DNA from: Lytechinus pictus
Taxonomy: Eukaryota
Length of the DNA stretch: 64,000 bases
Assembly: GCF_037042905.1 (NCBI RefSeq)
Contig: NC_087250.1
Span: 7,504,001-7,568,000, forward strand
Reading direction: 5' to 3'
Numbering within the stretch: position 1 is the first letter of the stretch; every line of letters starts with the position of its first letter. The notes under the pieces are model-generated. The model was not told where the DNA came from. It ran no database searches and was given only the letters and a program-made list of their open reading frames with translations. The position numbers and the translations under genes are program-made. Shown one piece after another: positions 4,953 to 53,266 of the stretch.

Positions 4953-5010
4953 CTGTGAGGCATGGAGATAAAATATGAATGACACCTTACATGTTTTTAA
5001 TAAAAATTTT

Positions 5011-10644: not shown

Positions 10645-10659
10645 CTGAATGAACAGAAC

Positions 10660-11130
10660 ATAAAGAGAGATGGAGAGAGAGTAGGGGGTGGGGGGAAAGA
10701 GCGGGGTGGAGAGAAGTGGGAGAGGGGAAGAAAGAGATTGGGAGATGGGGTTAGGGTGGGGTGGGAAGATGTGTGAAGGGAGAAAGAGAAAGAAAGAAAG
10801 ATTGATTGGGAGAAGGGGTTGGGGTAGGGTTGGGGAGAAGTGGGAGAGAGGAGAAAAGAGAGAAAGATAAAGATTGGGAGAGGGGTTGGGTGCAGAGAAA
10901 TGGGAGGGGAAAAGAAAGAAGGATAGATTGGGAGAGGGGTTGGGTGGGGATGTTAAGAAGTGGGAATTAAGGGAGAAAGATAAAGAGGGATAGATATATT
11001 GGGAGAAGGGGTTAGGGTGGGGGTGGGAAGTGGGAGGGGACAAAGATAGATTTGGAGTGGGGGTTGGGGTGGGGTGAGAAGTGGGAGGGGAGAAAGGGAA
11101 AGATATATTGAGGGGAGAGAGAGAGAGATA
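10660..11130. repeat. Purine-rich (G/A) low-complexity repeat upstream of the PINX1 exon 2 acceptor
   Basis: Recurrent GATTGGGAGARGGGTTRGG units. Confidence 0.85.
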
Positions 11131-11671
11131 AACATTTAGAAAAATTATTCAAACCTAAGAAAAGGATTGGAAACCGTCCTTATGTAATTTAAATGGATAC
11201 TTGTGGCTGCTCTTGCATACACGCTTAAACCTCTGTATTCAGATCCAGTTTGCTGATTTTAAGATGTTTGTACATGGAAACAAGATGGCGGCGTAAACAT
11301 TGGGCAATTCTCTTCCGTCTTTTCATATTTTTCTCATTTTTTTTATGAATTCTTGTTTAAAAATAAAATCGATAGCGTAGAAATGTCGGAAATGAAGTTG
11401 TACCCCATGTACATGATAGGGCTAGATCTTTTTTCTAGAAGTAGAAATCTTGGGGGGGGGGGAAGTTTCAGGTGTTGGGGCGGTACGTGCAGATACATGT
11501 ATGAATGGGAAGGAATTCCTGGCTTCGACCTTCGTTGAGAGTAAGCATAGGTTAGTAAATAATTTTTTTTTACTCTCTAGAACTAAACTCTAAAGCCTCC
11601 TCCTGCCTGGCCTGCATGGGCTGGCAATACTATTATTACTAACCCAGGGAGCTCCCGCCTGCTGCGCGGGC

Positions 11672-12144
11672 GGGAGCCCAGGGGCTTACCGTGTATTTGA
11701 CCATAGTCACCGGACTAGGGTGATTTATGGTCTAAATATTTCTCTAAATGAATTGTGAAAACAGAAAGTATACAATTACCACGATTATATGGATGAAGGT
11801 CTAACGAGTGGCAGTTTCCTGACATCTGGGCACAGACTGGAACCTCAAAAAAACGAAAAGTTCTCTCCTTCTACCCAGTCTCGATCGGCCATTTTGTTAC
11901 GATTTTTAACAAAAATGGCCGATCGAGACAGGGAAGAAGGAGAGAACTTTTCGTTTTTTGAGGTTCCAGTCTGTGCCCAGGCAGATGTCAGGAAACTGCC
12001 ACTCGTTAGACCTTCATCAATATAATCGTGGTAGGCCTAATTGTATACTTTCTGTTTTCACAATTCATTTGGAGAAATATTTAGACCATAAATCACCCTA
12101 GTCCGGTGACTATGGTCAAATACACGGTAAGCCCCTGGGCTCCC
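11672..12144. repeat. Near-perfect long palindrome (~230-bp arms, tiny loop), foldback-type MITE
   Basis: Arms are reverse complements around ~11903. Confidence 0.9.
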
Positions 12145-13110
12145 TGGGGCTGGGTTATAATAGTGGCATGGCTACCTTTTTCTTGAAAATCTGTGTTTTT
12201 TATAAGAGTGCACGCGCGGCCCACGTCCAAAACTGAAAAAACACCACTTTTCCACGCGGTTTCTTTTTGTCACGCATGTGTACAGCAATTATATTTGACT
12301 GCCCCCTCCGGGATGTAATGTAGAGCTCTGACTCTGAGCTCAAGCCCAAGCCTTGGCCTCAGCTCCGCCAACGCAGCACCGCGAAGGCAGCGGAGCTTAC
12401 CTGCTGCTTAGCCGAGTTCACATACACGCATTTTATCGTATTTACATGTATAGTCACGTATTGTATTACCGGACGCGCATATTACTGCATTCGAAAACAA
12501 TTTTGTACCGTAAGACTTCCGCAATTCAATTTCACAGAGCAATACATAGAACAGGATTGCAAAAACAAGGCGAAAAAAATCCAACTTTTACCTTATTTAT
12601 CTCTAAAATGACAGAAAATGCTTAAAATATCAAATAACATAGTTTTGCATTAACAATTGATATATTTTCTAACGGAAATATGGGTCTGATCTGCCGAATT
12701 TCAATTAATCTCGTCCGCTCCTTCGATCGAATGATGAGGTGTGGTGTATTGTGGGTGATCGTCGACGGCTAGTTCTCAAGGTACCCGTGCGCGAGGTTTA
12801 CCGTGAGCACCGTGAGTATAGAGCCGTCGACGATCGGCAGCGCATCGATAGAACTTGATGAGCGTCACGATACGAACGAGCATAATATTGGAAAGTTCCA
12901 TGAAACATGCAGCTAACAAGAAAAAATAAAATAAGTTATCAAACACGAATTTATTACCAACATCTGCTCAGAATCGATATAAAAACAGCAAACAAAAACT
13001 TAGAATTTACTCATGATATTATATAAGAAGAAAAAATCACACAAATTTGTTCTTACATCATTATAATCAAGAATATCTTTACCCGTCCGGCGCGCGTCCG
13101 GAATCATGAT

Positions 13111-13557
13111 CAGTAGAGGCGCACGGCCAATATTGGAGACTGTCTCCAATGTGGGAGATTATCTCCAATATCAGAGACTTTTGTAAAGAATTTGGGTATC
13201 CAATTTCAGAGACAGTCTCCAGTTTTGGAGTCCAATTTCCTTTGTTTACATTTGCTGCAAAAGGATTACCTTGGCGGCAAATAAAAATGTGATAAGCAGA
13301 TTCCTCATGAAAAATTACCCCTTTTCACCGTCTACTTTAAAAATTCACCGTCTACTTTTATTTTGATAAGGGATTTTGTTGTCAATCACACACAAAACAA
13401 ATGGGCTTCTGACCTCAGTGAGACAAAATTTTGGGTGGAAAAAATCATACTTTTGTTGGTGTTGTTTCTTTTGTCCTTTTGCAAAGCAAGTCTCCAATGT
13501 GGGAGATTGTCTCCCCTATTGGAGAGAGTCTCCCATATTGGCCGTGCGCCTCTACTG
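13111..13557. mobile_element. hAT-like MITE (CAGTAGAGGCGCACGGCCAATA TIR) with subterminal TCTCCAAT repeats
   Basis: 22-bp TIR; TSD not clearly conserved. Confidence 0.75.
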
Positions 13558-14865
13558 TCTGATGATGTAATTTGTCACGCACGAAAATAACTGTTTTTCG
13601 TGGAGGGGTATGCGGCAAGTGCGATGCAAAGAAAATGGTTGGTAAATATAAAATAATTTTACCATATTCATAATTTTCATAATATTTGGAATAGCAAGTG
13701 CGATTTTTTCTTGATTGTATTTCCTCTAGTGGTCATTTTTAAAGCACTGAAATAAAGGTGTCCGGCAATAGGATACATAGACCAAAAGCTTCGGTCTCTA
13801 TTATGTTGGTTGTTCAGCTGAACTCCGTTGGCTTCACTCACCAAATACAGAGACCGAAGTTCTAGCGCGATCTGTACAGGGGACTCAATGGCCATATGTT
13901 TATGTACTTAAGATCGGATAAAACGGGGAAGTGAATTTGCGCGACAGCCGAGGTAAGTCACTGTTTTTGTTCCTTTTAACTTGATTTTTCTCCGTTTTTT
14001 GGCAATTAATGCCAAGAGGGAATATTAATTTGCATTTTGGTCGCGTTAATTTTCAAAATTTTTTTTCATTAAAGACAAAAATTGAAGAGCCCCGACGGGG
14101 GATTTTGCATTGCAAGTCCCCTAATGGTGGCTGCACGCTAGCGAGCACGTCCCGTTAAAGACAGCACGTTAGCCATTCTCTGATTGGTCAATTAAGGAAG
14201 TCCGATAGTGTGTGTGTTACGTGCAGGCTATGTGGGCTACGTGGCCGTACGCTCGGTATCGTTCGTTTACGACTAATGAGTAATATAGATTCGTGCGAAT
14301 TTATTATTACAGATGATTTATGGGTTAAAATCATAGAGATGTATACTAATCTCTATGGTTAAAACACATGTAGATCTATTTAATGTTGACGATATCGTGA
14401 ACAACGGAGGATCTATGAACCCGCGCGTACGAAGTTAGATGCGAGACCAGTCGTTTTTCGAAAATGGAACAGTGCAATTACCACCATTAGAGTACCAAAT
14501 TCAATTCAAGGGACGCGAGCGCGAGTTCTGCAGCATACCATACGTGGAGTTGAAATTTGAAAACATATCAACAACATCAATTACAATTATTTTTTTACTT
14601 GGTGGAAGATTCAATGCACTAAGAGTTAGAAAAACGAAACATTTTAATTTTAGGGTAGGGTAGATAGGATTATTTAATTTTGTAAAAATATTTTCATCAT
14701 GATAATTTTTAATATACAAGGCAAAAAGTGTTATAGTAGGCCCTAAATATTGTAATAGAATTTCAAATACATTTAATAATTTCATAAAGCCATTGCAAAA
14801 CAAGATTTTATTTTAAGCACATTTAGACATCTACAAAAGTTTGCATAACCTGTTAATAATTTATG

Positions 14866-15510
14866 AATATGTCATGAAAATGGCAACACGGCTGTCTCTA
14901 AATGCTTTATACACTATATGTCAAGAAAATGGCAACACGGCTGTCTCTAATTGTCATATAAACTATATGTCAAGAAAATGGCAACACGGCTGTCTCTAAT
15001 TGTCATATAAACTATATGTCAAGAAAATGGCAACACGGCTGTCTCTAATTGTCATATAAACTATATGTCATGAAAATGGCAACACGGCTGTCTCTAATTG
15101 TCATATAAACTATATGTCATGAAAATGGCAACACGACTGTCTCTAATTGTCATATAAACTATATGTCATGAAAATGGCAACACGGCTGTCTCTAATTGTC
15201 ATATAAACTATATGTCATGAAAATGGCAACACGGCTGTCTCTAAATGCTTTATACACTATATGTCAAGAAAATGGCAACACGGCTGTCTCTAATTGTCAT
15301 ATAAACTATATGTCATGAAAATGGCAACACGGCTGTCTCTAATTGTCATATAAACTATATGTCATGAAAATGGCAACACGGCTGTCTCTAATTGTCATAT
15401 AAACTATAATTATGTCATGAAAATGGCAACACGGCTGTCTCTAATTGTCATATAAACTATATGTCATGAAAATGGCAACGCAGATGTCTCTAATTGCTTT
15501 ATACACTATT
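14866..15510 (+). repeat. 49-bp minisatellite, 13 copies (ACTATATGTCATGAAAATGGCAACACGGCTGTCTCTAATTGTCATATAA)
   Basis: TGGCAAC recurs every 49 bp from 14881 to 15473; inverted partial copies at 16162-16271. Confidence 0.95.
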
Positions 15511-18335
15511 TTTTTAAGTGGACTTGTCCTTTAAGTAGTCAATTGATGGCTTTCAACCAGGATTATCTATTGTTAATTCCTACCCCAAAGCAGGATATAA
15601 AGCTGAATGTACTATAGTCCTTGAAGTGCTAATTGGTTTTCTGCTAAAAGTAATCCCTCTTTTGTTACTAGAAATACTTATTGTAATGACTTTGGGTTTG
15701 CAAAGTATAGAATTACCGTGAAGAGACTGCCTATATAATAATTACAGTTGAAGATACTAATATCTCAAATTCATTATTATAACCGCGTTTCAATTTGCAT
15801 GGCAGTTATAGTCAATATAACATGAAAGGATGCTCCCGGCTGAAGATATATCTAAATAAGTAGAGTAAAATTCACAGCCTAGAGCAAAATGCTGTTTCAT
15901 CAGAATCGGATAACAAATAATGAAGTTATTGAATTTTAAAATTTAGCAATATAGTGATATGCACTTCGTCATAAACATGATAAATAGTCCTATTTATTAT
16001 GTGGGCTGCGGATATGATGTCACATCCCAACTTTTCGTTTTCTTATTACTTGAAATCATAATTGCTTCTATAATTTTTCATCCATGTGTAAATGATGCGT
16101 CTCCATTTGATGAAAATAAGTTCCAGCAATTGATAAATTAATGCACTTAATCAGTTGTCAGCAGTGTTGCCATTTTCATGACATAATTTTAATTCATATA
16201 GTAGAGAGAGCCGTGTTGCCATTTTCATGACATATAGTCTATATGACAATTAGAGACAGCCGTGTTGCCATAACCATACATAGATATAACCATATATTTT
16301 GACATTCTAAAAATGTTTTCATATCATTTACCTATAATATATAATATATTAATGTTATAATATTTTTATAATATTTTTGTGCTAGCTGGGTTTATCTTCT
16401 CCGTGCATTTCGATCTCTCTTTGATATGCGGTACTTTTTATATATAGGTGTGTTATTTATTAGATTCTCATATTTTATCAATTTATCGCGAATTACCATC
16501 AAGGTTTTAGAAGATAGTGTATCTAATATAGATTTTTTCAAAAACTTACCGTCATTGTCATATGAAAGCAAAACAAATTGTGAAGGGAAAGTTTATGAAG
16601 AAGAATGTTTTACAGTCCTTAAAGGAATGAAACAAAATAAATCATCATGGAATGACGGACTGACCGAAGGGTTTTTTACTACATTCTGGACAGAAATAAA
16701 AGATATTTTACTAGGGGCATTTAACAAGGCATTTGAAACAGGAGAACTAACTGCATCACAAAAACAAGCTGTGGTCATTCTGATTGCCAAAGATGGGAAG
16801 GACCCTCATTTACTTAAGAATTACAGGCCAATATCATTATTAAATATTGATTATAAAATTCTATCTAAAGTCTTGGCAACAAGATTAAAAGATGTTTTAG
16901 AAGACATTAGTTCAGTAGATCAAATAGGTTTCATGAACGGGAGAACTATTGGAGAAGCAATCAGAATAATATACGACGTAATATTCCATGCGACAAAAAA
17001 TGACTTACCATAGGGTATATGATAGCAATTGACTTTCAAAAGGCTTTTGATTCGGTGTCCCATGATTTTCTTAATAAAATATTACATTTTTATAACTTCG
17101 GTCCACAGTTTTGCAGATGGGTGGAAATTTTGTACAAAAACTTATTAAGTTGTATTTTTAATGGAGGAATGTCAACGGGATATTTTGATGTACGTAGAGG
17201 CGTAAGGCAGGGGATCCCCTATCCCCATGCCTGTTTATTTTATGTTTAGAAATACTGACACATAATGTAAGATACAATAGGGAGGTTAAAGGTATTTTGT
17301 TTGGAAAGGAGGAAATAAAAAAATCATGTATGCAGATGATATGACCCTTTTTGTTCAAGATGAAGATTCAATTAGAAAAGTCAAAGGTTTATTAGAGAAT
17401 TTGGAAATATTTCAGGATTTGGTGTTAATAAGGATGAAACAAAAGTTCTCTTGATTGGGGCTTTACAAGGAAAATCTTATGAAATACCTTTCGGCCAGAG
17501 AGTGGATTTTGTTAAGATATTAGGGGTGTTTTTTTCTTCGAACAATGAAGTAAAAGAAAATTTGAATTACAAAGAAATATTAAGTAAAACAAAAAAACTT
17601 TTAGGTTGGTGGAAACAGAGGGATTTGACGTTGATGGGTAAAATACAGTTACTAAAGATATTTATATATTCAAAATTCACATACACAGCGGCCCTCATGC
17701 CAGTTCCAAAATGGGTTTATGAGGAGTTAGAAAAGATAACCTTTGAGTTCCTGTGGGGTGGAAGAAATAAAATTAATAGAAATACGATGTATCTGGATTA
17801 CCATTTGGGAGGTCTGAAAATGATGAATTTTGAACTGTTAATAAAAGCACAGAGAGTTATGTGGGTCAAAAAACTTATGGAAAATAACGAAATGAAATGG
17901 AAGTTATATTTTAATCGCGCTACACAACATGTAGGCGGAAGTTTCATTTTTTTCTTGTGACTATTTACTTGACCTTTTGAATTTAACATTGCCAAAGTTC
18001 TATACAGATCTTCTGGAAGTGTGGATAGAAACGAGGAATTTCTAGCAGAAATATGAACCTTACAAAGGAAATGAAATAATGTTTAATAATAAATTCATAC
18101 GAGTTAACGGAAAGTGTATATTTGACAGAAAGCTTTTTGACAAAAAATATATAGATTGAAAAAAAATATATATAGATTGAACCACATAATGGATAGTGAC
18201 GGAAATTTAAGATCTCATGGATACTTAAAACGACGAGGATTAGAATCCAATGACATTGAATTGATTGGCAATAAGATCTATGGTACACTTCCGGTCAGCT
18301 GGAAGAGGAATATGAGAACAGATAGAGACACAATT

Positions 18336-19072
18336 CTCGCTACCCCAAATAGGAACAAAAATCTCATAATGCGCGAGACGAGATAATTTTCACCCCGTCG
18401 GGTCGTCATCACCACTTCCGGTTTAGAGTCATGCCCGCGCGAGGTTCGCGATACTGAGTTTTCCACCACGCTGAAATCGATGCCAATCAGCGTAATATGT
18501 ACAGAGTATAATACTTTTTATTACATTTGGTCAGTTTTGATTCCATTTGAATTATAAATAAAAATAAAAAATATATTTCACGTAAGAATAATTTTTATTC
18601 ATGCTTTTATTTGGTTATAAAAAAATCTAACAAATAATGAATATCTTAAAATTTTGCATTTAGCGACCGGCCTGACATCACGATCGTATTCAACTAGACA
18701 CTAAATATATTCAGCATTCATTTCGTTCAATTTTTCGTCGACCACAAAATGGATAAAAATCAGTTTCGGAACTTAAAAAAAATCTTAACTGACAGATGAA
18801 TACCATGCAATGGAAAGCGTCAGGCAGAATTAGTGACTTTAGCAGAAAAGGCTGTAAAACTGTTAGTGAAAGAGAGGGTTGTGATCACGAACTTTCCGAG
18901 CGAAAGCTACGTTGTGTTGTTGTGCATGACGGCACTGTTGATCTAAATGGCAAATGCAGTGCGTTGGACTTCCGAACAGGAAGTTGTAATACCGAAAAAG
19001 CTATCCCATAATGCAATGCACGTTACAGGGATTTTCCCGGATCTCGGCGAAATCGCTATTTGGGGTAGCGAG
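18336..19072. mobile_element. 737-bp MITE with 17-bp TIR and AATT TSD (possibly Sola1-type)
   Basis: TIR CTCGCTACCCCAAATAG; AATT at 18332-18335 and 19073-19076; interrupts LINE ORF2. Confidence 0.85.
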
Positions 19073-21287
19073 AATTCCTGATGATCCTGACATAGTTTTT
19101 TTATTAGGTAAAAATGTTGTAGCAATAAATGATATTGCATCAAAAAAACTTTATACAACATTTCTTTACCAGAAAGCAATAACACCTGGAGTATTCACAA
19201 GACTAAAGTGTAACTACCGTCTTTCAGATAAAGACACTAGAAAATATTTTTAAAAGACCAAGGCAATGTACATTAAACAGCCGACTTAGAGAGTTCCAAT
19301 TTAAATTCATACACGGAATCATTTATACAAATCAGCATATGCATTTGGGAAAGTTTATTCTAATCTGTGTAGCTACTGTAAAAAAGAAGAAGAGACTTAT
19401 CGTCATTTATTTTTTCAAGTGCGAAAAAGCAAAATTAATATGGAGAGACTGCGAGAATATTTTTGACTTTGTTTCTTTCACCAATCTTACTTGGGAAGAC
19501 ATATTTTGGGGATAAAATTAGCAGATCAAGGAAAAGAAAAATTGGTTATAATCACTTTATAATCCTTGTGAAGTATTTGGTTTTCAGTGGTAGAGAAAAC
19601 AATTCAGAAATAGTTTTGAATAAGATTAAAAATAAATTAAAAGAAAATGAATTTGAAAAAATAAAATTGGCATTAAATAGAAATAAATACCCCCTTCACT
19701 TAAAGTATACATCCAAAGAAAATTCACGAAAGTGATGATTATAGACAAATTATATATGAATGGAAAGGTCTTGTCTTTTTATACACAAATATGTCACTAA
19801 AAAGTCTTATTGATGTCGTGGAAATGCAAGAAATGAAATTATTAGAGACCATTCTAAGCCCCCCAGCCGCCCCCAGACCGACAGTTCACGCAGTGAAAAC
19901 AGTCGAGAATAATGACGTCACACAATCATCGAGCTCATCATCCCTCTGTGCATAATACACTGAATCACCTTACTGACCTCTTCAATATCTTCCGAATTTA
20001 CCGTTTTCTTCATGTAATGTGACATCCGAATTCTGTTTTCGACAACTTCAGACTATAAGGGAACCAGAACTGTGTTATTTTGCCCGTTTTTTATTGAATT
20101 GTGAACTGGAAAGATCGATTTTGTCCACTCGACAGTCTTCGTTGTGTTGCTCTACTAACTATTGAAAAACTCCAAGCTGCACGGTCCCATTCACTTGCTC
20201 CCGATGCATGTTGCAGGCTACGCTGTTTGATCCAGTCAAAAGTCAAGGTAAGCATGTTTGGAAACTGTACTTGTTCTGACGATGCATTCAGGTCAGATGA
20301 CAGATACAGATCTGATATAAGTTTAGAATCATGCATTTTGGCATAACTACTATTAAAATTAAAAAGTTTTTATTTTAGAAATAATGTTTTTGCACAATTC
20401 CACCCAAGGGCACTCTAGGCGACACCCCAATACTTACCCGTGCTAATAAACTGGGACTCCACTCACGCGCATTTGGGCCGCCCTAGCTTAGAACTAAGCA
20501 ATATTATCTAGAAATTGTTACATTGTAGTCATTAAATATGTTCTATTAAATAAATTGATAATGTTTAATCGGTACTCACCGGTTCTTTTGTTGCATTTTC
20601 AGACCATTTCTCACAATTCTTCGTAAATATTTGCGGCAAATTTTGTCGCCATAGACAGCTTAGCATCCATCTTTATTGATAAATGGAGCGCCCTTTACGA
20701 TAGTTGTTAATGCCGCGGAGAAATCGTTAGGCATTTTGGCCTGTGTTCAAGGCGTTCTTTCTGTTTTATTTTTTATATTGAAGATTGTGCATTTGTTGAA
20801 TAGCGCCGTCTACGTCAGGTATGAGATCGAGTGTATAAATACACTCTTCCAAAATAATTATGATTCCGACCTGGCGCTGTTTAACTTCAATCTCTTTCAC
20901 CTAAATTAGCGATGAATGCTAGCATTATAAAATATATATTATTAACGTCTGACGAAAAGAATAACCAACCGATCAGCTGACGAGAACGCGAATCACGTGA
21001 TCTTCATATCAGCTTCGATCGAGAGTCAGAAGAGAAGAGCAGCTGCCCAGAAAATCAGGAAAAAGCCCTGAAAATGTAAGTTCCCCTTCATTTCTTTAAT
21101 TTTTTGTTGTTGCTAACGATGCATTTACACTATAAAATTATAATTTAAATAAGAGAAAGGAATATAGCTTGTACTTGTGATATAATATATAAATATCCTG
21201 TTCTCAGAGATTTCTAACCAAAAATACTACTGATGTCGCCTATGAGGTCCATACATGTAATGTTGGACCTCATTGGTACTAGGAGTG

Positions 21288-21893
21288 CCCAAGGGTTCAT
21301 TACATGCCGCCACGCACAGAAAAATCAAGCCATAGAAGTCGTGTGTTGTGGACCCAAGAAGTGAGATCCCAGACGCCTCCAGGCTAAGCACGCGCGACCC
21401 ACTAGTTAGAAATCCACTGACAAACGCGGTTCGTGGTGCGAGGTTAGTATACTTAATACGTGTGAGTGGCACAATTCCAGCAGATTTTTTCTTCAGATTT
21501 CTAAAACTGGTCAGGACTCAGGCAGGCGATTAAATTATTTAGGAGCACTGAGTGGTATGGACCATGGCTGAAAATCTGCTGTTTCAGAGGAATGTTTAAG
21601 TTTTTATTATACACAGAATTATATCACCATGATGCCGATGTCATGAAGCCAGACAAATTTTCAGCAGTGATTACCCTGATTCCTGGCCAAAATCACTCAC
21701 ACGTATTGCGAGGTTAGTATTAGTATACTACTAGTACGTATTGCGAGGTTAGTATTAGTATACTAACCACGAACCGCGTTTGGCAGTGGATTTCTAACTA
21801 GTGGGTCGCGCGTGCTGGGATCTCACTTCTTGGGTCCACGACTTCTATGGCTTGAATTTTCTGTGCGCGGCGGCATGTTAATGAACCCTTGGG
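21288..21893. repeat. Long inverted repeat element (~180-200-bp arms)
   Basis: CCCAAGGGTTCATTA... pairs with ...TAATGAACCCTTGGG; indels between the arms. Confidence 0.85.
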
Positions 21894-22023
21894 TGGGCCA
21901 AAATTAGAGTCTGGTGTTTCTTTCTGATTAGAGTGTTGCTGCATATATGTATGCGTAATGCCTTCAACAATGAAGATAAATGCAATCTTTGTAATGACAC
22001 AGATAGAGACTCAGAGAGCACCG

Positions 22024-22180
22024 TACCTCAAGTGATGTTCGTGTAGTCTCCACTTCACTACTGGAGTACTGCTACAGCCTACACTACGCTACACACCTAC
22101 CCGGGTAGGTGTGGCGTACATGTACGGTAGTGTAGCGGTAGTGAAGTGGAGTGGGGCCTACACAAACATCACTTGAGGTA
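22024..22180. mobile_element. 157-bp palindromic mini-MITE with 8-bp TSD GAGCACCG
   Basis: TIR TACCTCAAGTGATGTT; central perfect palindrome CACACCTACCCGGGTAGGTGTG. Confidence 0.85.
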
Positions 22181-22769
22181 GAGCACCGGTGTTCTGAGTG
22201 GAACTTTTCAGGTGTCTAAACCTACTATCATTTGTTGTTGACCGGGAATTACATGCCACCGCACGTCATCAATCATCACGATAATTAAATTCATACTTTA
22301 ATTTGATTATTTAAACTATTTCTTTTTTTCTCTCTTCTACACACAGATCTGCACACTTGCTGACTCTGGTGACTTATGGTCTCTGCTTGCTACCTCAATC
22401 TGGGAGATTCCATCATGTCCTTTTACTATGATTTGGGTATAGCCATTTTTTTCTTCACTCTTTCCAGGACCTACGGTTTGCAAGTTGTGGACTGATAATG
22501 ATACAAAAGAAATTTTTTCTTTATCAATCTTGGAAACAACTTTGAGCACAGTTTTGGAGAGAACTAAGAAATTTGACTTGGACAAGAATACAGCTTGTCA
22601 AAAATAATAACACACAATTTAAACGAAAGAACAATTTTAATGTTACTAGGGCATTTTGCGAGAAATGTTATACTCAATCACACGTCCCAAATCAAGGGTA
22701 AGTCCTTTGATTAAACATGTAGTTGAAGTGCGATTGCAACTCGACCTTATTACGCTTGCGGTATTTTAT

Positions 22770-25700
22770 AGATGGCAAATATAGCGATCTTCAACGCTTA
22801 TATATAAGCGTCGAAATTTGTAGCCATCTCCTTGTATTAGTCTATAATATACGACGTGTCAAATTGTAGCGAACTAGTTCGCTATTTCCAGATCTCCTCT
22901 ATATATATATACGAGGGGGAATTGTAGCGAACTAGTTCGCTATTTTCTAGATCTCCTCTATATACAAACGACGAGAAATTGTAGCGAACTAGTTCGCTAT
23001 TTTTCGGAACTCCTCGATATATACACGAGGGGGGATTGTAGCGAACTAGTTCGCTATTTTCCAGATCTCCTCTAGATACATACTACGGGATTTGTAGCGA
23101 ACTAGTTCGCTATTTTTCGGATTTCCTCTATATATATATATACGACGGGAAATTGTAGCGAACTAGTTCGCTATTTTCCAGATCTCCTCTATATATATAT
23201 ACGACGGGAAATTGTAGCGAACTAGTTCGCTATTTTTCGGATCTCTTCTTTTGTAGCGAACTAGTTCGCTATTTTTCGGATCTCCTCTATATACGACGGA
23301 AAATTGTAGCGAACTAGTTCGCTATTTTTCGGATCTCCTCGATATATACACGAGGGGGAATTGTAGCGAACTAGTTCGCTATTTTCCAGATCTCCTCTAG
23401 ATACATACTACGGGATTTGTTCGCTATTTTTCAAATTTCCTCTATATATATACGACGGGAAATTGTAGCGAACTAGTTCGCTATTTCCAGATATCCTCTA
23501 TATATATATACGAGGGGGAATTGTAGCGAACTAGTTCGCTATTTTCTAGATCTCCTCTATATACGACGGAAAATTGTAGCGAACTAGTTCGCTATTTTTC
23601 GGATCTCCTCGATATATACACGAGGGGGAATTGTAGCGAACTAGTTCGCTATTTTCCAGATCTCCTCTAGATACATACTACGGGATTTGTTCGCTATTTT
23701 TCAAATTTCCTCTATATATATACGACGGGAAATTGTAGCGAACTAGTTCGCTATTTCCAGATATCCTCTATATATATATACGAGGGGGAATTGTAGCGAA
23801 CTAGTTCGCTATTTTCTAGATCTCCTCTATATACAAACGACGGGAAATTGTAGCGAACTAGTTCGCTATTTTTCGGATCTCCTCGATATATACACGAGGG
23901 GGAATTGTAGCGAACTAGTTCGCTATTTTCCAGATCTCCTCTAGATACATACTACGGGATTTGTAGCGAACTAGTTCGCTATTTTTCGGATTTCCTCTAT
24001 ATATATATATACGACGGGAAATTGTAGCGAACTAGTTCGCTATTTTCCAGATCTCCTCTATATATATATACGACGGGAAATTGTAGCGAACTAGTTCGCT
24101 ATTTTTCGGATCTCTTCTTTTGTAGCGAACTAGTTCGCTATTTTTCGGATCTCCTCTATATACGACGGAAAATTGTAGCGAACTAGTTCGCTATTTTTCG
24201 GATCTCCTCGATATATACACGAGGGGGAATTGTAGCGAACTAGTTCGCTATTTTCCAGATCTCCTCTAGATACATACTACGGGATTTGTTCGCTATTTTT
24301 CAAATTTCCTCTATATATATACGACGGGAAATTGTAGCGAACTAGTTCGCTATTTCCAGATATCCTCTATATATATATACGAGGGGGAATTGTAGCGAAC
24401 TAGTTCGCTATTTTCTAGATCTCCTCTATATACGACGGAAAATTGTAGCGAACTAGTTCGCTATTTTTCGGATCTCCTCGATATATACACGAGGGGGAAT
24501 TGTAGCGAACTAGTTCGCTATTTTCCAGATCTCCTCTAGATACATACTACGGGATTTGTTCGCTATTTTTCAAATTTCCTCTATATATATACGACGGGAA
24601 ATTGTAGCGAACTAGTTCGCTATTTCCAGATATCCTCTATATATATATACGAGGGGGAATTGTAGCGAACTAGTTCGCTATTTTCTAGATCTCCTCTATA
24701 TACAAACGACGGGAAATTGTAGCGAACTAGTTCGCTATTTTTCGGATCTCCTCGATATATACACGAGGGGGAATTGTAGCGAACTAGTTCGCTATTTTCT
24801 AGATCTCCTCTATATACAAACGACGGGAAATTGTAGCGAACTAGTTCGCTATTTTTCGGATCTCCTCGATATATACACGAGGGGGAATTGTAGCGAACTA
24901 GTTCGCTATTTTCCAGATCTCCTTTAGATACATATACTACGGGATTTGTAGCGAACTAGTTCGCTATTTTTCGGATTTCCTCTATATATATATATACGAC
25001 GGGAAATTGTAGCGAACTAGTTCGCTATTTTCCAGATCTCCTCTATATACGACGGGAAATTGTAGCGAACTAGTTCGCTATTTTTCGGATCTCTTCTTTT
25101 GTAGCGAACTAGTTCGCTATTTTTCGGATCTCCTCTTTATATATACGACGGAAAATTGTAGCGAACTAGTTCGCTATTTTTCGGATCTTCTTTATAAAAT
25201 TTTATACACGAGGAGGAATTGTAGTGAACTAGTTCGCTATTTTTCTAATCTTTATATATACAAGAGACGGAATTGTAGCGAACTAGTTCGCTACAATTCC
25301 CCCTCGTGTATATAATTTTATAGAGGAGATCCGAAAAGTAGCGAACTAGTTCGCTATTTTTCTGATCTTTATATATACAAGAGACGGAATTGTAGCGAAC
25401 GAGTTCGCTACAATTCCCCCTCGTGTATATAATTTTATAGAGGAGATCCGAAAAGTAGCGAACTAGTTCGCTACAAAGCCCGTCGTATGGATATAGAGGA
25501 GATCTGGAAAATAGCGAACTAGTCTGCTACAATTTGACAATATGGCATCAATATATACAGCCAAAACCTGCAGATTTTCACTTTGAAGCCTTCACAATAA
25601 TGTAAGCTTTGGAAAAAATGACAACTAGTTCGCTACAATTTCCCCCTCGTGTATATGAAGAGATCAGAAAAATTGCCATCTAGTTCGCTACAGTTTGCCA

Positions 25701-26352
25701 TGTTTATATTTTAGAGAGGAGATGAGAAATGGCGAACAAGTTTGCAACAATTTCCTGTCGTATACATGTAGAGGAGATCCGAAAAATAGCGAACTACATG
25801 TAGTTTGCTACAATTCCCCCCTGGTGTATATATAGAGGAGATCCAAAAAAATAGCGAACTAGTTCGCTACAATGCCCCCTCATATATAGTTCGCTACAAA
25901 TCCCGTCGTATGTATATAGAGGAGATCTGGAAAAATAAAAAAATAGCGAACTAGTTCGCTACAATTCCCCCTCGTGTACATATCGAGGAGATCCGAAAAA
26001 TAGCGAACTAGTTCGCTACAAATCCCGTAGTATGTATATAGAGGAGATCTGGAAAATAGCGAACTAGTTCGCTACAATTCCCCTCGTGTATATATCGAGG
26101 AGATCCGAAAAATAGCGAACTAGTTCGCTACAATTTCCCGTCGTTTGTATATAGAGGAGATCTGGAAAATAGCGAACTAGTTCGCTACAATTCCCCCTCG
26201 TATATATATATATATATATATAGAGGAGATCTGGAAATAGCGAACTAGTTCGCTACAATTTGACACGTCGTATATTATAGACTAATACAAGGAGATGGCT
26301 ACAAATTTCGACGCTTATATATAAGCGTTGAAGATCGCTATATTTGCCATCT
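22770..26352. mobile_element. Foldback element whose inverted arms consist of ~55-60-bp tandem repeats with the palindromic core TAGCGAACTAGTTCGCTA
   Basis: About 130 bp of identical terminal inverted sequence; forward array ~22861-25270, reverse array ~25400-26260; possible 3-bp TSD TAT. Confidence 0.9.
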
Positions 26353-29300
26353 TATTATTTCCCTTACGCTTGAATTTGAATTTAAGACTTACGCTTGATT
26401 TGCAATTGAACATAAGTTTCTTGCAGTGCCCCATAATTATGTTTTGTTATCAGATATTTAACGTGCTGATTTTTCTCGAAAGGTATAATATATTTGTCCT
26501 TTTAAACGGTATTTGAATATGGGTACGCCTTTTATTTGTTTTCCACAATATTTATTGCATGTATGAACAGAAGTGAAATATTTATTGTGAAGCACTGTGA
26601 ATGTTGTGTGATGGTTCATCATTTTTGTTATAAGACTGAAAGCCTGGTGGATGTGAGGAAGTGGCCTGGATGAAAGAAAAGTGAACATGTGTCCAATTAC
26701 TGATTTGCATATTCTAAGACAATTTTGTTTCTGGATAAATTTTGCTATGCATTCCCTACATTAAGAGTAAAGGAGAAGTCCACGCAATCAAAAATTCATT
26801 TGAATTTAAAGAAAAATAACAAGATATTGCAGGAAATTTCATAAAAACTTTGATTCAAATTTATATAATTACTATTTTAACAGTTCCGTAAATATAACCT
26901 ATTGTGATCAGATGAAGAGTTTCTATCGTCAAATCTGCAAAGAATAAAAAACAAAATGCCACAAAAATAGAAACGAATGTGATGTGAGTGACAACTCTAA
27001 TTTGCATATCATTGTTTTGTGTATATGACTGTTTTGAGTAAAAACAACAAGGGAAATTACTCTATTCAAATAATTTTTAGTTGATGTGGACTTGACTTTT
27101 AACTCTACCCCTCCCATCCCAAATAAGAGTAGAAATAATCTAATCAAGAACTTGAAAATCAAAAGCAGCAATTAAGAAGCAAGATATGATAAATACAGGT
27201 CTGAATAGAATTTCACAAGAAAATAAAAAGAGAAAAAAAAAATGGGTAGGGACAGGGAAGGAATAAAAAAAAAATACCCAGAAAAAAAAAACGAGTTTCG
27301 AACCAGGGTCCTCGCACATGACAAAACAATGGCCAACGCATTTGGCCACAGACCATCTCCCTAACAGGAAGGCATTTTTAAGATATATAAAAGAAAGTCC
27401 GCTCGCCGCTGTTTCCTAATAATGCTTCGGCAATTCAACTGCAATTTCAGTCATTTCGCGATGGATATTGCCGTGTTTTTTTTTGTGGTTCCTGACTTTG
27501 CTACTTAATGAAATTTCATAATTTTTGTTCAGTCATAAAGAAGAATGTCTATGCTTTATATTGACTATAACATTAATGTGACGCAAGTGTGATTTCTACG
27601 TGAAAATATGCTTTGTTTATTCACATATATTTCTTGAAAAAAAAAAAAATTCTAAGCTAAATATCGGTTACCAAAATACGTTAAATGTGCACTTTTTTTC
27701 ACTGTTCAGTAAATTCAAACTTTTATCTATATAACAAGACCAATCTTAAGAGGAATAAACAATTCTAAGAGCAAAAAACGCTGATTGGAAAGATCGTCTC
27801 CAATGGGCTGCTGTCAGCTCAGCTGCACACTGCTCATTGTGTGACGTCACTCAGCTGGAGCTCGCAAGAGGACCGGTGGAAGGCAGAAATATGGCATGAA
27901 AATAAATCATTTTTGAGAGCTGATTTCTGCAATCTCTGATCACTATTTTGAAAAGTGAAGTTATATATCTGATTAGTAATACTTCCCCTTTACAATGATG
28001 ACCACATAAAGTCATTATAAAATACTTTTGATTCTTTGGATGTATACTTTAAGAAAATGGGAATGTTGGGAGGAGTTTAGGGAGAGCTAAATGTGCCAAA
28101 AACAAAAACAAAATGAAAATAAATGAATAAAATAAATTAATTAATTAAAAGTATAAAATGAATAAATGATAAATAAGTTAAAAATAAAATAAGAATAAAT
28201 AACGTGTGTATAAATTATATAATAACGATAATGAATAAAGTATTTTTTCAATGAATGCTTAGGCATGAGAGTATTTTTCATTAATATATATATGTACATA
28301 TATATTTTTTTTTTCATTCTTACCATTCAGAGAAGGAAAACGTTTTTTCCGCCCCCACACGAGTAGAACGGGAAGGTTGTGACGACGAAGGGCATGGGAG
28401 GGGGGTTATGGGGAGGGGTAGAGGGTAGGGCCTGAGGCTGATGTTGTTATAGGATATGAAATATATGAGGAATGAGGCCAAGGTGTGGGGAGGGGGGTTA
28501 TGGAAAATCCTTGTTAATGGCTTTAATTCGACTAGGTTGTATTAATGATTGGTTTTGTGTATTTGGAAAATCTGTTACGTTGTGAATATTTTGACACAAG
28601 AAAAAAAATCGAGTACGTTGAGTTTTATTAGGTTTTATTGTAACACTAAAGGAAAAAAGAGAAAATTTAAAGTGTATATGAGTTTACAATGTATTCATAT
28701 ATTAATTTGTAAAGATATATTGTATTTGATGTATGTATTTTATTTTGTATATGACATGTATGAATTGAAGTTGTTGACAAATAAAAACTTCTTAATACAA
28801 AAAAAAAACCACCACTCGAATAAGAAGACTGTCGTTATATTGTAAATATCATCCGCTAACGTAGAACTAGAAAACAAAATCGGTTAGCTCTAGTGCAACG
28901 AGCCACGAGTCTGATAGTGATACACAAAAAATTGTATCTTCGGCGACGTGCATGAAATATGTTTTTATTACGACTGGTACCGAAGTCTATAGTCTGACCA
29001 TTGATTGATTGGTTGAGCGTGAGCGCGCGCGTCACAGTATGGGTCAAAAAGTTGTTTTTCTTCGCTAGATAATCGTCCATTCGTCCTGTTGTCCAATTCA
29101 GAATTCCTTGGAGAATCTTTCATTTGCAGTTGTGTGATATTAAAATTAGGAAACTGAATATGGTGATAGCGAACCTGTGAAGATCGTTTCAATTACCATC
29201 TTGCGAATAACGTCCTTTAGTGTGTATAGTCCGTACGTACATGCACAGGATATACGTCCTTAACCGACCAATCAGAGAATGGCTAACGTGCTGTCTTTAA

Positions 29301-29636
29301 CGGGACGTTAGCGAGCCGTCTGTGTACGAGGAGAAATAAAAAAAATAAAAAAAGTTAAAAAACTCCTCGAAACAGACGGCTGCCAGCTGTCTATAGGATA
29401 CACTGCCATACTGACACTACTGATTACTGTGTCTGTACATGTCCATCTACGATACACACAGAGACACTGCACTCACGCACTGCCACTGGCATCCAATCCT
29501 ACTCCACAACCACACACTACGACTACGTCAGACTCTGACCGCGCTGACATTTACTACTCTTCTTGGGGGCAACAGAACAAGGAGAACATCAGAATACCTG
29601 ATACTCATATTATTCAATGTCATACATGTTTCATAC

Positions 29637-29709
29637 CTTCACTCCAAGCTTTATTTCTCGGGTCAAAAGACAATTTCTGTCGCCGTCGCGGCTCCGCAAG
29701 CATCGCCAT
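29637..29709 (-). CDS. PINX1: PINX1 exon 1 (MAMLAEPRRRQKLSFDPRNKAWSE)
   Basis: Manual translation matches the conserved PinX1 N-terminus (MxMLAExRRxQK..DPxNxAWS). GT donor (gtatga). Phase 1 fits exon 2. Confidence 0.93.
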
Positions 29710-34973: not shown

Positions 34974-35051
34974 TTAAAGAGAGCTCAAAACAACTAATGT
35001 CCGTCGCTGTCGTTATTGGCTGATTCTCTTCATTTACTTTCTCTCCAACAG

Positions 35052-35269
35052 TCGCTAATGGAGCTTCACAAAAGACGGAAGGCGATCACTGAGCCAGAGA
35101 CTCGTTACTTCATGCGGCAGTGCATCCTGGCCTGTCAGTATCTGTCCAAGACGAAGGTGATCCACCGTGACCTCAAGCTTGGTAACCTCTTCCTCGATGA
35201 CAACATGGAGATCAAGGTCGGCGACTTTGGCCTTGCTACCAAGGTCGACTTCAGCGGAGAGCGCAAGAA
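35052..35269 (+). CDS. PLK1: PLK1 exon 4 ([10 protein letters not shown]...HRDLKLGN...DFGLATK)
   Basis: Catalytic HRDLK and DFG motifs. Confidence 0.97.
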
Positions 35270-35419
35270 GTAAGTCCTGCGGAGGAGACGTGTGATTTTA
35301 CAATGATAGGTCATTTATTTGTCTATTGTATTTGTGATTTAGGTATGATAAGGCATCAATAATTCTTGGTTTTCATTTTTTTTTTCTGGGACACTCTGTA
35401 TAATGATTGTAACTTTTGA

Positions 35420-35542
<123 letters not shown>

Positions 35543-36124
35543 TAAGTCTTTTTAAAATATTCCTTCTCAGGGTAAATTGCCAACTTGTCCACTCACCAGA
35601 TGGCCTACCTTCGTTTAATCTAAAGCCATTACGTCCAACAGCCATTTGGTCCAATTATCACTTTGTCTAATTAGACCAAGTGGTATATGGACTAAATGGC
35701 TATTTGACCAACTGGTTATCAGACGAAACAGTGAGTGGATGAAATGGCAATTAGACCATGTGGTCAGTGGACGAAGTGATGGTAGACCAAATGATAGTAG
35801 ACGAGTTGGCAATTGGACGAATTGGCATTAGACCAAATGAAAATAAACCCTTCTGAGATGGTCATTGGTTTGTGCAGGTCCTATATATTTACAGATGAAA
35901 ACAGGTGTAAAGCCATTTCGTTAATTGGTCAGACTTGGAATTATAGGCAAAATGGAAACTTCTTGTGTACAATTGCTCATTCAACTTGTAGAAATATTTT
36001 TAGACATTGATAATTTTATTTTCAACTTAGATAAGGTTTTTGCATGTACATGTAACCACAAAACAAAAGTTATCTAGCCAATCAGTCTGTTTCAGTATAA
36101 AAGACCAATTATTTTGGTCTTTTG

Positions 36125-36428
36125 TGGCCCAAGCGTTGTGGCCCAGTGGATTAGTCTTTTGACTTTGAAACAGAGGATCGTGGGTTCGAATCCCAGCCAT
36201 GGCATAATTTCCTTCAGCAAGAAATTAATCCACATTGTGCTGCACTCGACCCAGGTGAGGTGAATGGGTACCCGACTACCCGGCAGGATTAATTCCTTGA
36301 ATGCACTGAGTGCTGAAAGGCAGCTCGAGCTAAAGCCGGGGTAATAATGATAATAACAATGCGCCTTGGAATATATTTTTTCTAATCTAGATAGATGGCG
36401 CTGTATAAATGCCTGTTATTATTATTAT
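36125..36428 (+). mobile_element. tRNA-derived SINE; partial copy at ~39630-39770
   Basis: A box (TGGCCCAGTGG), B box (GGTTCGAATCC), core body, (ATT)n tail. Confidence 0.8.
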
Positions 36429-36773
36429 ATTGATAATTTTTTTCAGTTTTCTGATTGTTGCTTCTAAGGCAAGTAAGATTTTTTTTTTTCTTTCTTTCTT
36501 TCTTTTTTTAACCATAATTCTTTTCCTTTGCCTATTACATATACTTGCTCTGTCTTTATTCAATAGGGACAGTCCCTATTTTCGGGAAAGAAGTCAATCA
36601 ATTTTCATCCATAATACCCCTATTTTTGTGAAAGTTAATTTCCATAGGGTTTTTTAGAAAATTTAACCAATGTCTCTATGTATTAGTCTAGTTTTTTTTT
36701 TTTTTTTTTTTTTTTTTGGCTGTAATCCTTTGTCCTTCTTTATGGACTTGCACTGTTTTGATCTGTCCTCCAG

Positions 36774-53255: not shown

Positions 53256-53266
53256 TCTCTACCTAC

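What the first reader, a model, noticed from the sequence alone, without database searches (positions are those of the whole stretch)
22770..26352. Foldback element built from an array of 18-bp perfect palindromes (CRISPR look-alike)
Seen: roughly 55-60 copies of TAGCGAACTAGTTCGCTA separated by related but variable 20-45-bp linkers. The array runs forward for ~2.5 kb and in reverse for ~0.9 kb. The outer ~130 bp of the two ends are exact reverse complements and carry their own palindrome (ACGCTTATATATAAGCGT). There is no ORF and no unique loop, and TAT flanks both ends. Known: foldback elements with tandem-repeat arms exist (Drosophila FB, sea urchin TU). Inference: this is a young non-autonomous element whose palindromes are multimerised binding sites for a dimeric transposase or host factor. 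Because it lies in the PINX1 intron, it could fold into many small hairpins plus a kb-scale duplex. I do not recognise this repeat unit.
Basis: partly seen in the sequence, partly recalled or inferred. Interest (0 to 1): 0.8.

Follow-up and report, generated by a model that had tools for sequence, protein, structure and literature searches.

The report
Foldback transposon in sea-urchin PINX1 intron
This is a 3.6-kb non-coding "foldback" jumping element, whose inverted arms are arrays of a repeat carrying a perfect 18-base palindrome, sitting in the first intron of a sea urchin's PINX1-like gene; it is a well-built new example of a known kind of selfish DNA.

Summary
The array is real: 49 exact copies of TAGCGAACTAGTTCGCTA (52 with up to 2 mismatches; 0 expected), all inside one element with perfect 142-nt inverted ends. 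Public contigs carry the same site without the element (joint 22749->26364). This puts the element at 22759-26363 (3605 bp), with 11 non-inverted bases outside each inverted repeat and a 9-bp target-site duplication, TTACGCTTG. Two other contigs join the same ends to different flanks, so it is a dispersed, mobile family.

The window comes from a Lytechinus-like sea urchin, and the element lies in intron 1 of a PINX1-like gene. It has no ORF and no transposase.

A 9-bp duplication, long repeat-built inverted repeats and short asymmetric outer ends match Foldback elements of the Mutator (MULE/Phantom) superfamily, such as nematode Tm1. That assignment is inferred (about 0.6), because no autonomous copy could be searched for.

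The left arm grew by a perfect 869-bp higher-order duplication. The idea that the palindromes are reiterated transposase-binding sites is plausible but untested.

Verdict: new member of a known kind, of moderate interest.

The parts
22750..22758 (.). Left copy of the 9-bp target-site duplication TTACGCTTG
   Evidence: the joint 22749->26364 skips 3614 bases, and 9 letters fit both sides. One search shows that both 9-mers are identical.
22759..22769 (+). Left outer end CGGTATTTTAT. It is not inverted with respect to the right end (5 of 11 positions match), so the inverted repeat is sub-terminal.
   Evidence: X6 contig record 18 starts matching exactly at 22759, and its 79 letters before that are a different flank.
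22770..22911 (+). Left perfect terminal inverted repeat of 142 nt. It comprises the 97-nt terminal domain (22770-22866) plus the first repeat unit. It contains the palindrome ACGCTTATATATAAGCGT (22795-22812), the half-site-like TAGCGATCT (22782-22790), and an internal hairpin (22770-22829).
   Evidence: (inverted pair I3, 100% complementary), and (hairpin of the terminal 60 nt, -11.3 kcal/mol).
22867..25293 (+). Forward array of about 45 units of roughly 57 bp. Each unit is the 18-bp palindrome, a T-run, GATCTCCTC, (TA)n, then ACGAsGGGAATTG.
23039..24776 (+). Two tandem copies of an 869-bp higher-order repeat of 15 repeat units (14 linker types, one spanning a truncated unit). The copies are 869/869 identical. 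Each holds a nested 270-bp duplication (261/270), and a third partial copy follows at 24777-25160 (96.7%).
   Evidence: (linker-type string).
25276..25473 (.). Orientation-switch region. There are three switches, each centred in a palindrome. The switch unit is a 28-bp perfect palindrome, AATTGTAGCGAACTAGTTCGCTACAATT. The region lies within a 117-bp duplication.
   Evidence: One search gives -14.6 kcal/mol for the switch hairpin.
25512..25860 (-). Degenerate, older-looking stretch of the right arm with decayed palindromes. About 70 nt are unique (25540-25609). The stretch 25512-25539 resembles the junction between the first repeat and the terminal domain.
   Evidence: 72-80% identity to other units, and query positions 29-98 have no match.
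25852..26255 (-). Reverse-orientation array of 7 units. It is colinear with the first 5 units of the left arm, with near-identity (6 substitutions and 2 indels over about 200 nt) beyond the perfect 142 nt.
26211..26352 (-). Right perfect terminal inverted repeat of 142 nt.
26353..26363 (+). Right outer end TATTATTTCCC, not inverted with respect to the left end.
   Evidence: X1 contig record 2 carries the reverse complement GGGAAATAATA next to the TIR, followed by a different flank. The empty-site joint also supports this boundary.
26364..26372 (.). Right copy of the 9-bp target-site duplication TTACGCTTG
10646..29637 (-). Intron 1 of the PINX1-like gene, which hosts the element. Exon 1 is at 29709-29638 and exon 2 (G-patch) at 10645-10520.
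   Evidence: tblastn of P0001 gives 100% identity for both exons. Pfam G-patch; protein names.

Best explanation
The feature is one copy (22759-26363, 3605 bp) of a non-autonomous Foldback-type cut-and-paste DNA transposon. It is inserted in intron 1 of a PINX1-like gene of a Lytechinus-like sea urchin.

Shown:
- It is an insertion bounded by a 9-bp target-site duplication.
- An empty version of the same site exists.
- The same two ends occur on other flanks in other samples.
- It encodes nothing.
- Its arms are inverted arrays of a roughly 57-bp unit.
- The left arm was lengthened by tandem higher-order duplication, the kind of change unequal exchange or replication slippage produces.

Inferred:
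- It is mobilised in trans by a Mutator-like (MULE, Phantom-type) DDE transposase encoded elsewhere in the genome (about 0.6). The basis is the 9-bp duplication, long TIRs built of tandem repeats, and short non-inverted outer ends outside the TIR.
- The invariant 18-bp palindrome in every unit is a reiterated binding site for a dimeric DNA-binding domain of that transposase or of a host factor. It would have been multiplied from a half-site-like motif in the terminal domain, raising the local concentration of the protein at the ends (about 0.35).
- The perfect symmetry of the palindromes and TIRs may also be maintained by intrastrand hairpin or gene-conversion repair.
For: **The repeat is not chance.** There are 52 matches against 0 expected, and the TIR is perfect over 142 nt.

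**It is an insertion.**
- Contigs of X1 (depth 168), X6 (depth 29) and X12 (2 contigs), plus 6 RNA reads of X23, join 22749 to 26364. Nine letters fit both sides.
- The X1 and X6 contigs run on upstream into sequence that matches the window at 29 of the 30 shown letters. This is therefore the same locus without the element.
- Both 9-mers are TTACGCTTG.

**Other copies exist.**
- X6 record 18 begins at exactly 22759 behind an unrelated flank.
- X1 record 2 has the TIR plus GGGAAATAATA and then an unrelated flank.
- X12 record 10 holds an approximately 92%-identical terminus.

**It is non-coding.**
- The longest frame is 111 aa, with no relatives.
- No Pfam transposase was found in 140 ORFs of at least 70 aa. 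These are 140 of 168 such ORFs; ORFs that were low-complexity, lay within the element, or started at or beyond 59000 were left out.

**Structure.**

**Literature.**
- Tm1 elements have FB-like composite TIRs of tandem repeats and 9-bp TSDs. They have asymmetric 7-bp outer motifs outside the inverted repeat (CGGTTAA and CCTACCC) and a Phantom/MULE transposase (PMC3169594, passages read). The element here ends CGGTATT... and ...TTTCCC.
- MULE TSDs are 8-11 bp, and the paper discusses MULEs from echinoderm hosts (PMC6446971, passages).
[quoted passage not shown] Tetris was assigned there from its 8-10-bp TSDs. Tandem repeats in Galileo TIRs hold extra transposase-binding sites (PMC4079207, passages).

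**Palindrome constraint.** The core shows 0 variant cells of 378, against 145 of 1071 in the linkers, across 21 distinct units.
Against: - No autonomous copy and no transposase were seen, so the superfamily rests on TSD length and end architecture only. Merlin (8-9 bp, recalled) and other superfamilies with 8-bp TSDs are near misses.
- Only one TSD could be measured. The other copies are single junctions.
- Copy number is unknown. In X6 the internal-unit contigs have depths of 10-19 and the terminus 3.4, against about 29 for the flank. This argues for a low-copy family there.
- The host site itself contains a third TTACGCTTG 25 bp downstream. A deletion between direct repeats could formally mimic an empty site.
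- The invariance of the palindrome is partly circular, because units were delimited by a near-exact core pattern. Decayed cores do exist at 25512-25900.
- No contig spans the array. The perfect 869-bp duplication and the switch region could owe something to assembly.
- The similarity of the outer ends to the Tm1 motifs is only 4 and 3 letters.
Confidence: 0.72

Rival explanations
1. It is a foldback-shaped non-autonomous transposon of a superfamily other than Mutator. Candidates are Merlin, or a hAT- or P-like (Galileo-type) lineage in which long repeat-built TIRs evolved independently.
For: The foldback architecture arose independently in different superfamilies. [quoted passage not shown] Only one TSD was measured here. 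No transposase was found.
Against: A 9-bp TSD lies inside the MULE range of 8-11 bp (PMC6446971). It is longer than the 7-8 bp recalled for Galileo, P and hAT. Non-inverted outer ends outside the TIR are reported for Mutator-like elements (PMC3169594).
Confidence: 0.2
2. It is not mobile. It is a locally grown inverted satellite or palindromic amplification, and the 'empty' form is a deletion between the 9-bp direct repeats.
For: The host site has an extra TTACGCTTG nearby. The arms demonstrably grow in place by tandem duplication. The exact 18-mer is absent from the rest of the 64-kb window.
Against: The same two ends, including the 11 outer bases, abut unrelated flanks in contigs of two differently labelled organisms (X1 record 2, X6 record 18). 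The boundaries defined by these contigs and by the empty site coincide to the base.
Confidence: 0.04
3. The insertion and its ends are real, but the internal picture is partly an assembly product of a hard-to-assemble palindromic repeat. This covers the 2.4 kb versus 1 kb asymmetry, the perfect 869-bp duplication and the triple switch.
For: No public contig spans the array. Most internal bins have zero depth in all four runs. The best run holds only 0.44 of the sampled words. The two 869-bp copies are identical at 869 of 869 positions.
Against: - Short contigs match internal stretches with 0-5 differences.
- X1 record 4 reaches only 5 bases past the first switch palindrome, at 25298.
- X1 records 5 and 6 cover the degenerate zone.
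- X12 shows 'opposite strands' joints between units, as expected of inverted arrays.
Confidence: 0.15
4. The element has been taken over by the host. It could be a hairpin-RNA or small-RNA source transcribed within the PINX1 pre-mRNA, or an array of binding sites acting on PINX1 or the neighbouring PLK-like gene.
For: It lies in a transcribed intron and has very strong fold-back potential.
Against: The site is empty in other samples, so it is not fixed. Nothing at this locus suggests conservation.
Confidence: 0.04

Closest known systems
Tm1, a Mutator/Foldback family of root-knot nematodes (Gross and Williamson 2011, PMC3169594; passages read)
   Same: Both have composite TIRs made mostly of short tandem repeats, with unequal repeat numbers in the two arms. 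Both have a 9-bp TSD. Both have short non-inverted motifs outside the inverted repeat (Tm1: CGGTTAA and CCTACCC; here CGGTATTTTAT and TATTATTTCCC). Most copies are non-coding.
   Different: There is no sequence relationship beyond 3-4 end letters. The Tm1 unit is about 14 bp and not palindromic, whereas here the unit is about 57 bp with a perfect 18-bp palindrome. Tm1 has a known Phantom-type transposase copy; none was seen here. The host phylum differs.
Drosophila FB elements and Tetris of D. virilis (PMC4079207, passages; FB details recalled)
   Same: [quoted passage not shown] The repeat seems derived from part of the terminal domain. Arrays expand in place.
   Different: Unit size and sequence differ (Tetris about 220 bp). 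Neither is reported to carry a perfect palindrome in every unit. No satellite-scale amplification was seen here.
[quoted passage not shown] 1983; recalled only, not held in the library)
   Same: Same host class. Both are foldback-type transposons with long terminal inverted repeats whose outer domains are short tandem repeats.
   Different: As recalled, TU outer-domain units are about 15 bp. No TU sequence was available, so homology could be neither shown nor excluded. The TU TSD length could not be verified.
Galileo (P superfamily) of Drosophila
   Same: It is foldback-like, with internally repetitive long TIRs. The tandem repeats carry secondary transposase (THAP) binding sites (cited in PMC4079207). 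This is the mechanistic model for the palindromes here.
   Different: The TSD is shorter (7 bp, recalled). Galileo has its own P-like transposase. It is not related in sequence.
Tandem-repeat-containing MITEs of bivalves (DTC84 of Donax trunculus, PMC3879986; search listing and abstract only)
   Same: Both are non-autonomous elements that carry satellite-like tandem repeats between inverted ends in a marine invertebrate.
   Different: In DTC84 the repeats form a central region (abstract); short TIRs and direct orientation are recalled, not read. Here the repeats make up the inverted arms themselves.

Membership tests
Foldback (FB-type) transposable elements (structural class) | Long terminal inverted repeats built largely of tandem sub-repeats, with unequal arm lengths allowed | tested here: met
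   The TIR is perfect over 142 nt and colinear over about 390 nt. The arms hold about 45 and about 10 units.
Foldback (FB-type) transposable elements (structural class) | Insertion flanked by a target-site duplication, with an empty site demonstrable | tested here: met
   The TSD is 9 bp, TTACGCTTG. Empty-site contigs occur in X1, X6 and X12, and in reads of X23.
Foldback (FB-type) transposable elements (structural class) | Dispersed family: the same termini at other loci | tested here: met
   Two single-end junctions on other flanks (X1 record 2, X6 record 18) and a diverged terminus in X12. Copy number is unknown, and there is no second full copy.
Mutator / MULE superfamily (Phantom-like FB elements) | TSD of 8-11 bp, most often 9 | tested here: met
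   One TSD was measured, of 9 bp. The range comes from PMC6446971.
Mutator / MULE superfamily (Phantom-like FB elements) | An autonomous member with the same termini that encodes a MULE DDE transposase (with or without a FLYWCH or other zinc finger) | not testable with these tools
   No whole genome is held. There was no transposase in 140 window ORFs. No eukaryotic genome collection is searchable.
Mutator / MULE superfamily (Phantom-like FB elements) | Sub-terminal inverted repeats, that is, short non-inverted end motifs (seen in some MULEs and in Tm1) | tested here: met
   There are 11 outer bases on each side, of which 5 of 11 are complementary. This feature is supportive but not diagnostic.
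TU elements of sea urchins | Sequence similarity of the termini or outer-domain repeats to TU1, TU2 or TU4 | not testable with these tools
   No TU sequence or paper is held. Repbase and Dfam are not available.
Galileo / P superfamily foldback-like elements | 7-8-bp TSD and a P-type (THAP) transposase | tested here: not met
   The TSD here is 9 bp. The 7-8 bp figure is recalled. The transposase could not be tested.
CRISPR array | A prokaryotic locus with identical repeats, unrelated unique spacers of constant length, a leader, and usually cas genes | tested here: not met
   The host is an animal intron. The 'spacers' are variants of one sequence. The array is inverted on itself, and there are no cas-like ORFs. 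Scans of prokaryote, metagenome and viral collections gave only 1, 2 and 0 isolated chance hits.

The most novel reading that the evidence does not exclude
The element may belong to a currently active foldback/MULE system in a laboratory sea urchin. In that reading, a still-functional transposase with a dimeric DNA-binding domain recognises the 18-bp palindrome. Arrays of about 50 perfect sites then act as a 'landing pad' that gives these non-autonomous copies a transposition advantage. The perfection of the palindromes would be kept up by hairpin-templated self-correction, as suggested by the symmetric 6-bp insertion that preserved dyad symmetry at 25787-25810. If so, it would offer a native transposon tool for echinoderm transgenesis. 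It would also offer a clean system for studying how reiterated binding sites and cruciform-prone DNA behave inside a transcribed intron.
Probability: 0.15. Interest if true: 0.6.

Novelty: new member of a known kind. Interest (0 to 1): 0.35.

Why it matters
Foldback elements are among the least understood DNA transposons. Most families lack a known transposase, and they promote inversions, deletions and new satellites.

This copy is unusually clean. It has a perfect TIR, a base-precise empty site and a measurable 9-bp duplication. Its repeat unit has a perfect 18-bp dyad, which is an obvious, testable candidate protein-binding site.

It appears polymorphic in a sea-urchin lineage used as a genetic model. 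It could therefore lead to an active transposase, and it gives a marker in PINX1 intron 1.

On present evidence it is still selfish DNA of a known type, not a new kind of system.

Tried and rejected
- **Whole-genome search for copies.** No genome is held.
- **Earlier findings of this scan.** Look-ups by place, by sequence and by relatives found nothing. One word search found nothing. The other returned only bacterial foldback notes, which were not used.
- **Exact 18-mer scans.** The metagenome, prokaryote-genome and viral collections gave 2, 1 and 0 isolated single hits. None was an array, and none had unit context, so they are chance hits.
- **Protein search with the 111-aa repeat-encoded frame**, to find mis-annotated copies in other genomes. 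None of 2993 candidates scored.
- **Protein atlas on the Gypsy polyprotein**, to get a taxon. It was uninformative.
- **Rfam over the whole window.** Only a tRNA at 54249-54321 was found, and nothing in the element.
- **Expression.** No RNA holder is listed for the stretch. In about 6% of one RNA run, depth inside the element was 0-0.7 against 0-19 in the flanks. Repeats were partly skipped by the tool, so no conclusion on expression is drawn.
- **Literature.** The 18-mer is in none of the searched papers. TU-element papers could not be found or read. A Lytechinus repeat search gave nothing specific.
- **CRISPR reading.** Rejected; see the membership test.
- **TAT as a 3-bp TSD (PIF/Harbinger-like).** Rejected by the empty site.
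Full report

Yes, in the main.
- TAGCGAACTAGTTCGCTA occurs 52 times with up to 2 mismatches, against none in 100 dinucleotide-preserving shuffles. Of these, 49 are exact.
- All 49 exact copies lie between 22867 and 26255, and none elsewhere in the 64-kb window.
- Tandem Repeats Finder gives a basic period of about 57 bp, with higher periods of 113, 160 and 270 bp.
- The outer inverted repeat is perfect over 142 nt, 22770-22911 against 26211-26352. Its 42-nt end occurs only at these two places in the window.

The flanking letters of each palindrome show its orientation: TTG...TTTT for forward, AAAA...CAA for reverse.
- Forward orientation holds from 22867 to 25293.
- Three switches follow, each centred in a palindrome (25276-93, 25339-56, 25393-410), within a 117-bp duplication.
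- Reverse orientation then holds to 26255.

The right arm contains a degenerate stretch at 25512-25860 that is only 72-80% like the other units. About 70 nt of it (25540-25609) match nothing else.

The longest stop-to-stop frame is 111 aa of repeat-encoded peptide.

**2. Where does the element really end?**

Four public runs, with coded names, were laid on 22300-26800. Contigs of X1 (depth 168), X6 (depth 29) and X12 (two contigs), and six RNA reads of X23, join 22749 directly to 26364. They skip 3614 bases, and nine letters fit either side.
- Those nine letters are TTACGCTTG, present at 22750-22758 and at 26364-26372.
- The X1 and X6 contigs continue upstream of 22301. Their first 30 shown letters match the window's own 22271-22300 at 29 of 30.
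- Over 387-449 aligned bases of left flank they differ at 7 positions and 1 gap.
- They are therefore the same locus without the element, not a distant paralogue.

The inserted segment is 22759-26363, 3605 bp.

Two further contigs confirm both boundaries to the base.
- X6 record 18 starts matching at exactly 22759, after 79 unrelated letters.
- X1 record 2 carries the 142-nt TIR followed by GGGAAATAATA, the reverse complement of 26353-26363, and then unrelated sequence.

The outer 11 bases, CGGTATTTTAT and TATTATTTCCC, are complementary at only 5 of 11 positions. The inverted repeat is therefore sub-terminal.

A caveat: the host site has a third TTACGCTTG 25 bp downstream, and only this one duplication could be measured.

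**3. Anatomy**

From each end inward, the element has these parts.
- The 11 outer bases.
- A 97-nt terminal domain that can fold on itself (AGATGGC...GCCATCT, -11.3 kcal/mol as DNA). It holds the palindrome ACGCTTATATATAAGCGT. It also holds TAGCGATCT (22782-22790), which matches the half-site TAGCGAACT at 8 of 9 positions.
- The array.

The inner part of the terminal domain (CCATCTCC...TATACGACGTGTCAAATTG) reads like a diverged linker. The repeat unit therefore looks derived from the terminal domain, as was proposed for Tetris (PMC4079207).

The two arms are colinear for about five units (about 390 nt). Beyond the perfect 142 nt they differ only by a few substitutions and the length of a (TA)n run.

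Each unit consists of the 18-bp palindrome, a T-run, GATCTCCTC, (TA)n, and ACGAsGGGAATTG. In some variants a second, weaker dyad (CCTCG...CGAGG) is present.

Among 21 distinct unit variants the core is invariant (0 of 378 cells), while the linkers vary at 145 of 1071 cells. Two cautions apply. Units were delimited by a near-exact core pattern, so this contrast is inflated. Decayed cores do exist in the degenerate zone.

Writing each linker variant as a letter gives the string ABC[DEFGHIJKLIJKMI][DEFGHIJKLIJKMI]MINEOGPQ....
- The bracketed 869-bp block is duplicated with 869 of 869 identical bases.
- Each block contains a nested 270-bp duplication (261 of 270).
- A third partial block follows at 96.7% identity.

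The left arm is thus long because it grew in place by tandem higher-order duplication. That explains the asymmetry of 2.4 kb against 1 kb.

As single-stranded DNA the whole element folds to -1259 kcal/mol. Of its 1463 pairs, 814 are more than 500 nt apart, and 283 of the 375 pairs made by the left 400 nt go to the right end. An isolated 18-mer makes only a 7-bp stem with a 4-nt loop (-5.7 kcal/mol).

**4. Context**

- The K/E-rich frame at 4119-5060 (minus strand) finds 'PIN2/TERF1-interacting telomerase inhibitor 1-like' proteins. Identities are 87-88% to two Lytechinus pictus proteins, 85% to one of L. variegatus and 77% to one of Strongylocentrotus purpuratus.
- tblastn of the L. pictus protein places residues 1-24 at 29709-29638 and residues 25-66 (the G-patch) at 10645-10520, both at 100% identity.
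- The window is therefore from a Lytechinus-like sea urchin.
- Of 168 ORFs of at least 70 aa, 140 were scanned against Pfam. The ones left out were low-complexity, lay within the element, or started at or beyond 59000.
- None of the 140 is a transposase.
- The neighbours are a polo-like kinase gene on the plus strand and a ubiquitin-hydrolase gene on the minus strand.

**5. What it is and how it most likely works**

The following are shown by the calls above:
- an insertion with a 9-bp duplication;
- an empty allele or orthologous site;
- the same ends on other flanks in differently labelled organisms;
- no coding capacity;
- arms made of inverted tandem arrays.

That is the definition of a non-autonomous Foldback-type DNA transposon.

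The superfamily is inferred. Three lines of evidence point to Mutator.
- MULE duplications are 8-11 bp (PMC6446971).
- Tm1 of root-knot nematodes combines the same three features seen here with a Phantom-type MULE transposase (PMC3169594). Those features are tandem-repeat TIRs, 9-bp TSDs, and short asymmetric motifs outside the inverted repeat. The Tm1 motifs are CGGTTAA and CCTACCC, against CGGTATT... and ...TTTCCC here.

I put the Mutator assignment at about 0.6.

The idea that the palindromes are reiterated binding sites for a dimeric DNA-binding domain rests on three points:
- their invariance;
- the half-site-like motif in the terminal domain;
- the Galileo precedent, where secondary THAP sites lie in TIR repeats (cited in PMC4079207).

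I put that idea at about 0.35. Hairpin-templated or gene-conversion repair of palindromes is an alternative or additional reason for their perfection. One decayed unit at 25787-25810 gained a 6-bp insert and kept its dyad symmetry.

**6. What remains open**

- No contig spans the array, and most internal bins have zero depth in all four runs. The internal order, the perfect 869-bp duplication and the switch region therefore rest on the source assembly alone.
- Copy number is unknown. In X6 the internal-unit contigs (depths 10-19) and the terminus (3.4) lie below the flank depth of about 29. This suggests few copies in that sample. In X12 the termini are far deeper than the interior, but the flanks there are a high-copy repeat, so depths cannot be converted into copy numbers.
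The TU papers are not in the library, so what I say of TU is recalled.
- The 18-mer occurs in none of the searched papers.

**7. Verdict**

This is a real, cleanly delimited and apparently recent foldback transposon of a sea urchin. It is probably Mutator-like, and its repeat unit is distinctive for its perfect 18-bp palindrome. It is a new member of a known kind, of moderate interest.

Noticed in passing
window 22688-22704 and 26386-26402 (flanks of the insertion): The insertion site lies inside a small repeat bounded by a 17-bp inverted repeat (16 of 17 complementary). This repeat would be about 100 bp long without the insertion. Its sequence has very high depth in run X12 (1e4-3e4), and X1 contigs show alternative joints (22715->26385, 22717->26400). 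This suggests a high-copy MITE-like host repeat, and therefore a nested insertion.
   Followed up: partly
window 25787-25810: One decayed unit reads TAGCGAACTACATGTAGTTTGCTA. This is the 18-bp palindrome with a central 6-bp insertion that keeps the dyad symmetry, with one mismatch. It hints at a palindrome-preserving mutational process.
   Followed up: no
window 59891-64000 (minus strand): An open 1369-aa gag-pol frame of a Ty3/Gypsy-type retrotransposon runs off the window end. The integrase comes before the reverse transcriptase, an order I recall for Gmr1-like elements. Atlas neighbours carry RVT_1, rve and RT_RNaseH.
   Followed up: partly
window 14867-15496: A 49-bp tandem repeat, 12.8 copies, 94% matches. 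It lies in PINX1 intron 1, just upstream of degraded LINE reverse-transcriptase fragments at 16372-17957.
   Followed up: no
window 37523-38008 and 40398-40700: Two further minisatellites within the polo-like kinase gene region: 130 bp x 3.8 copies and 144 bp x 2.1 copies.
   Followed up: no
window 8709-8931, 9908-10345, 52762-53257: Long trinucleotide microsatellites: (TAT)74, (GAT)146 and (ATC)167. The (GAT) run lies directly beside PINX1 exon 2.
   Followed up: no
window 54249-54321 (minus strand): A tRNA-like sequence (Rfam RF00005, 36.7 bits) lies among the exons of a ubiquitin-hydrolase (UCH) gene. It could be a tRNA gene or a tRNA-derived SINE head.
   Followed up: no
window 34998-42140 (plus strand): A polo-like kinase gene, with a Pkinase exon at 34998-35270 and POLO boxes at 39943-40239 and 41892-42140. 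It lies divergent to PINX1, whose exon 1 is at 29709-29638, so the two genes may share a promoter region of a few kilobases.
   Followed up: no
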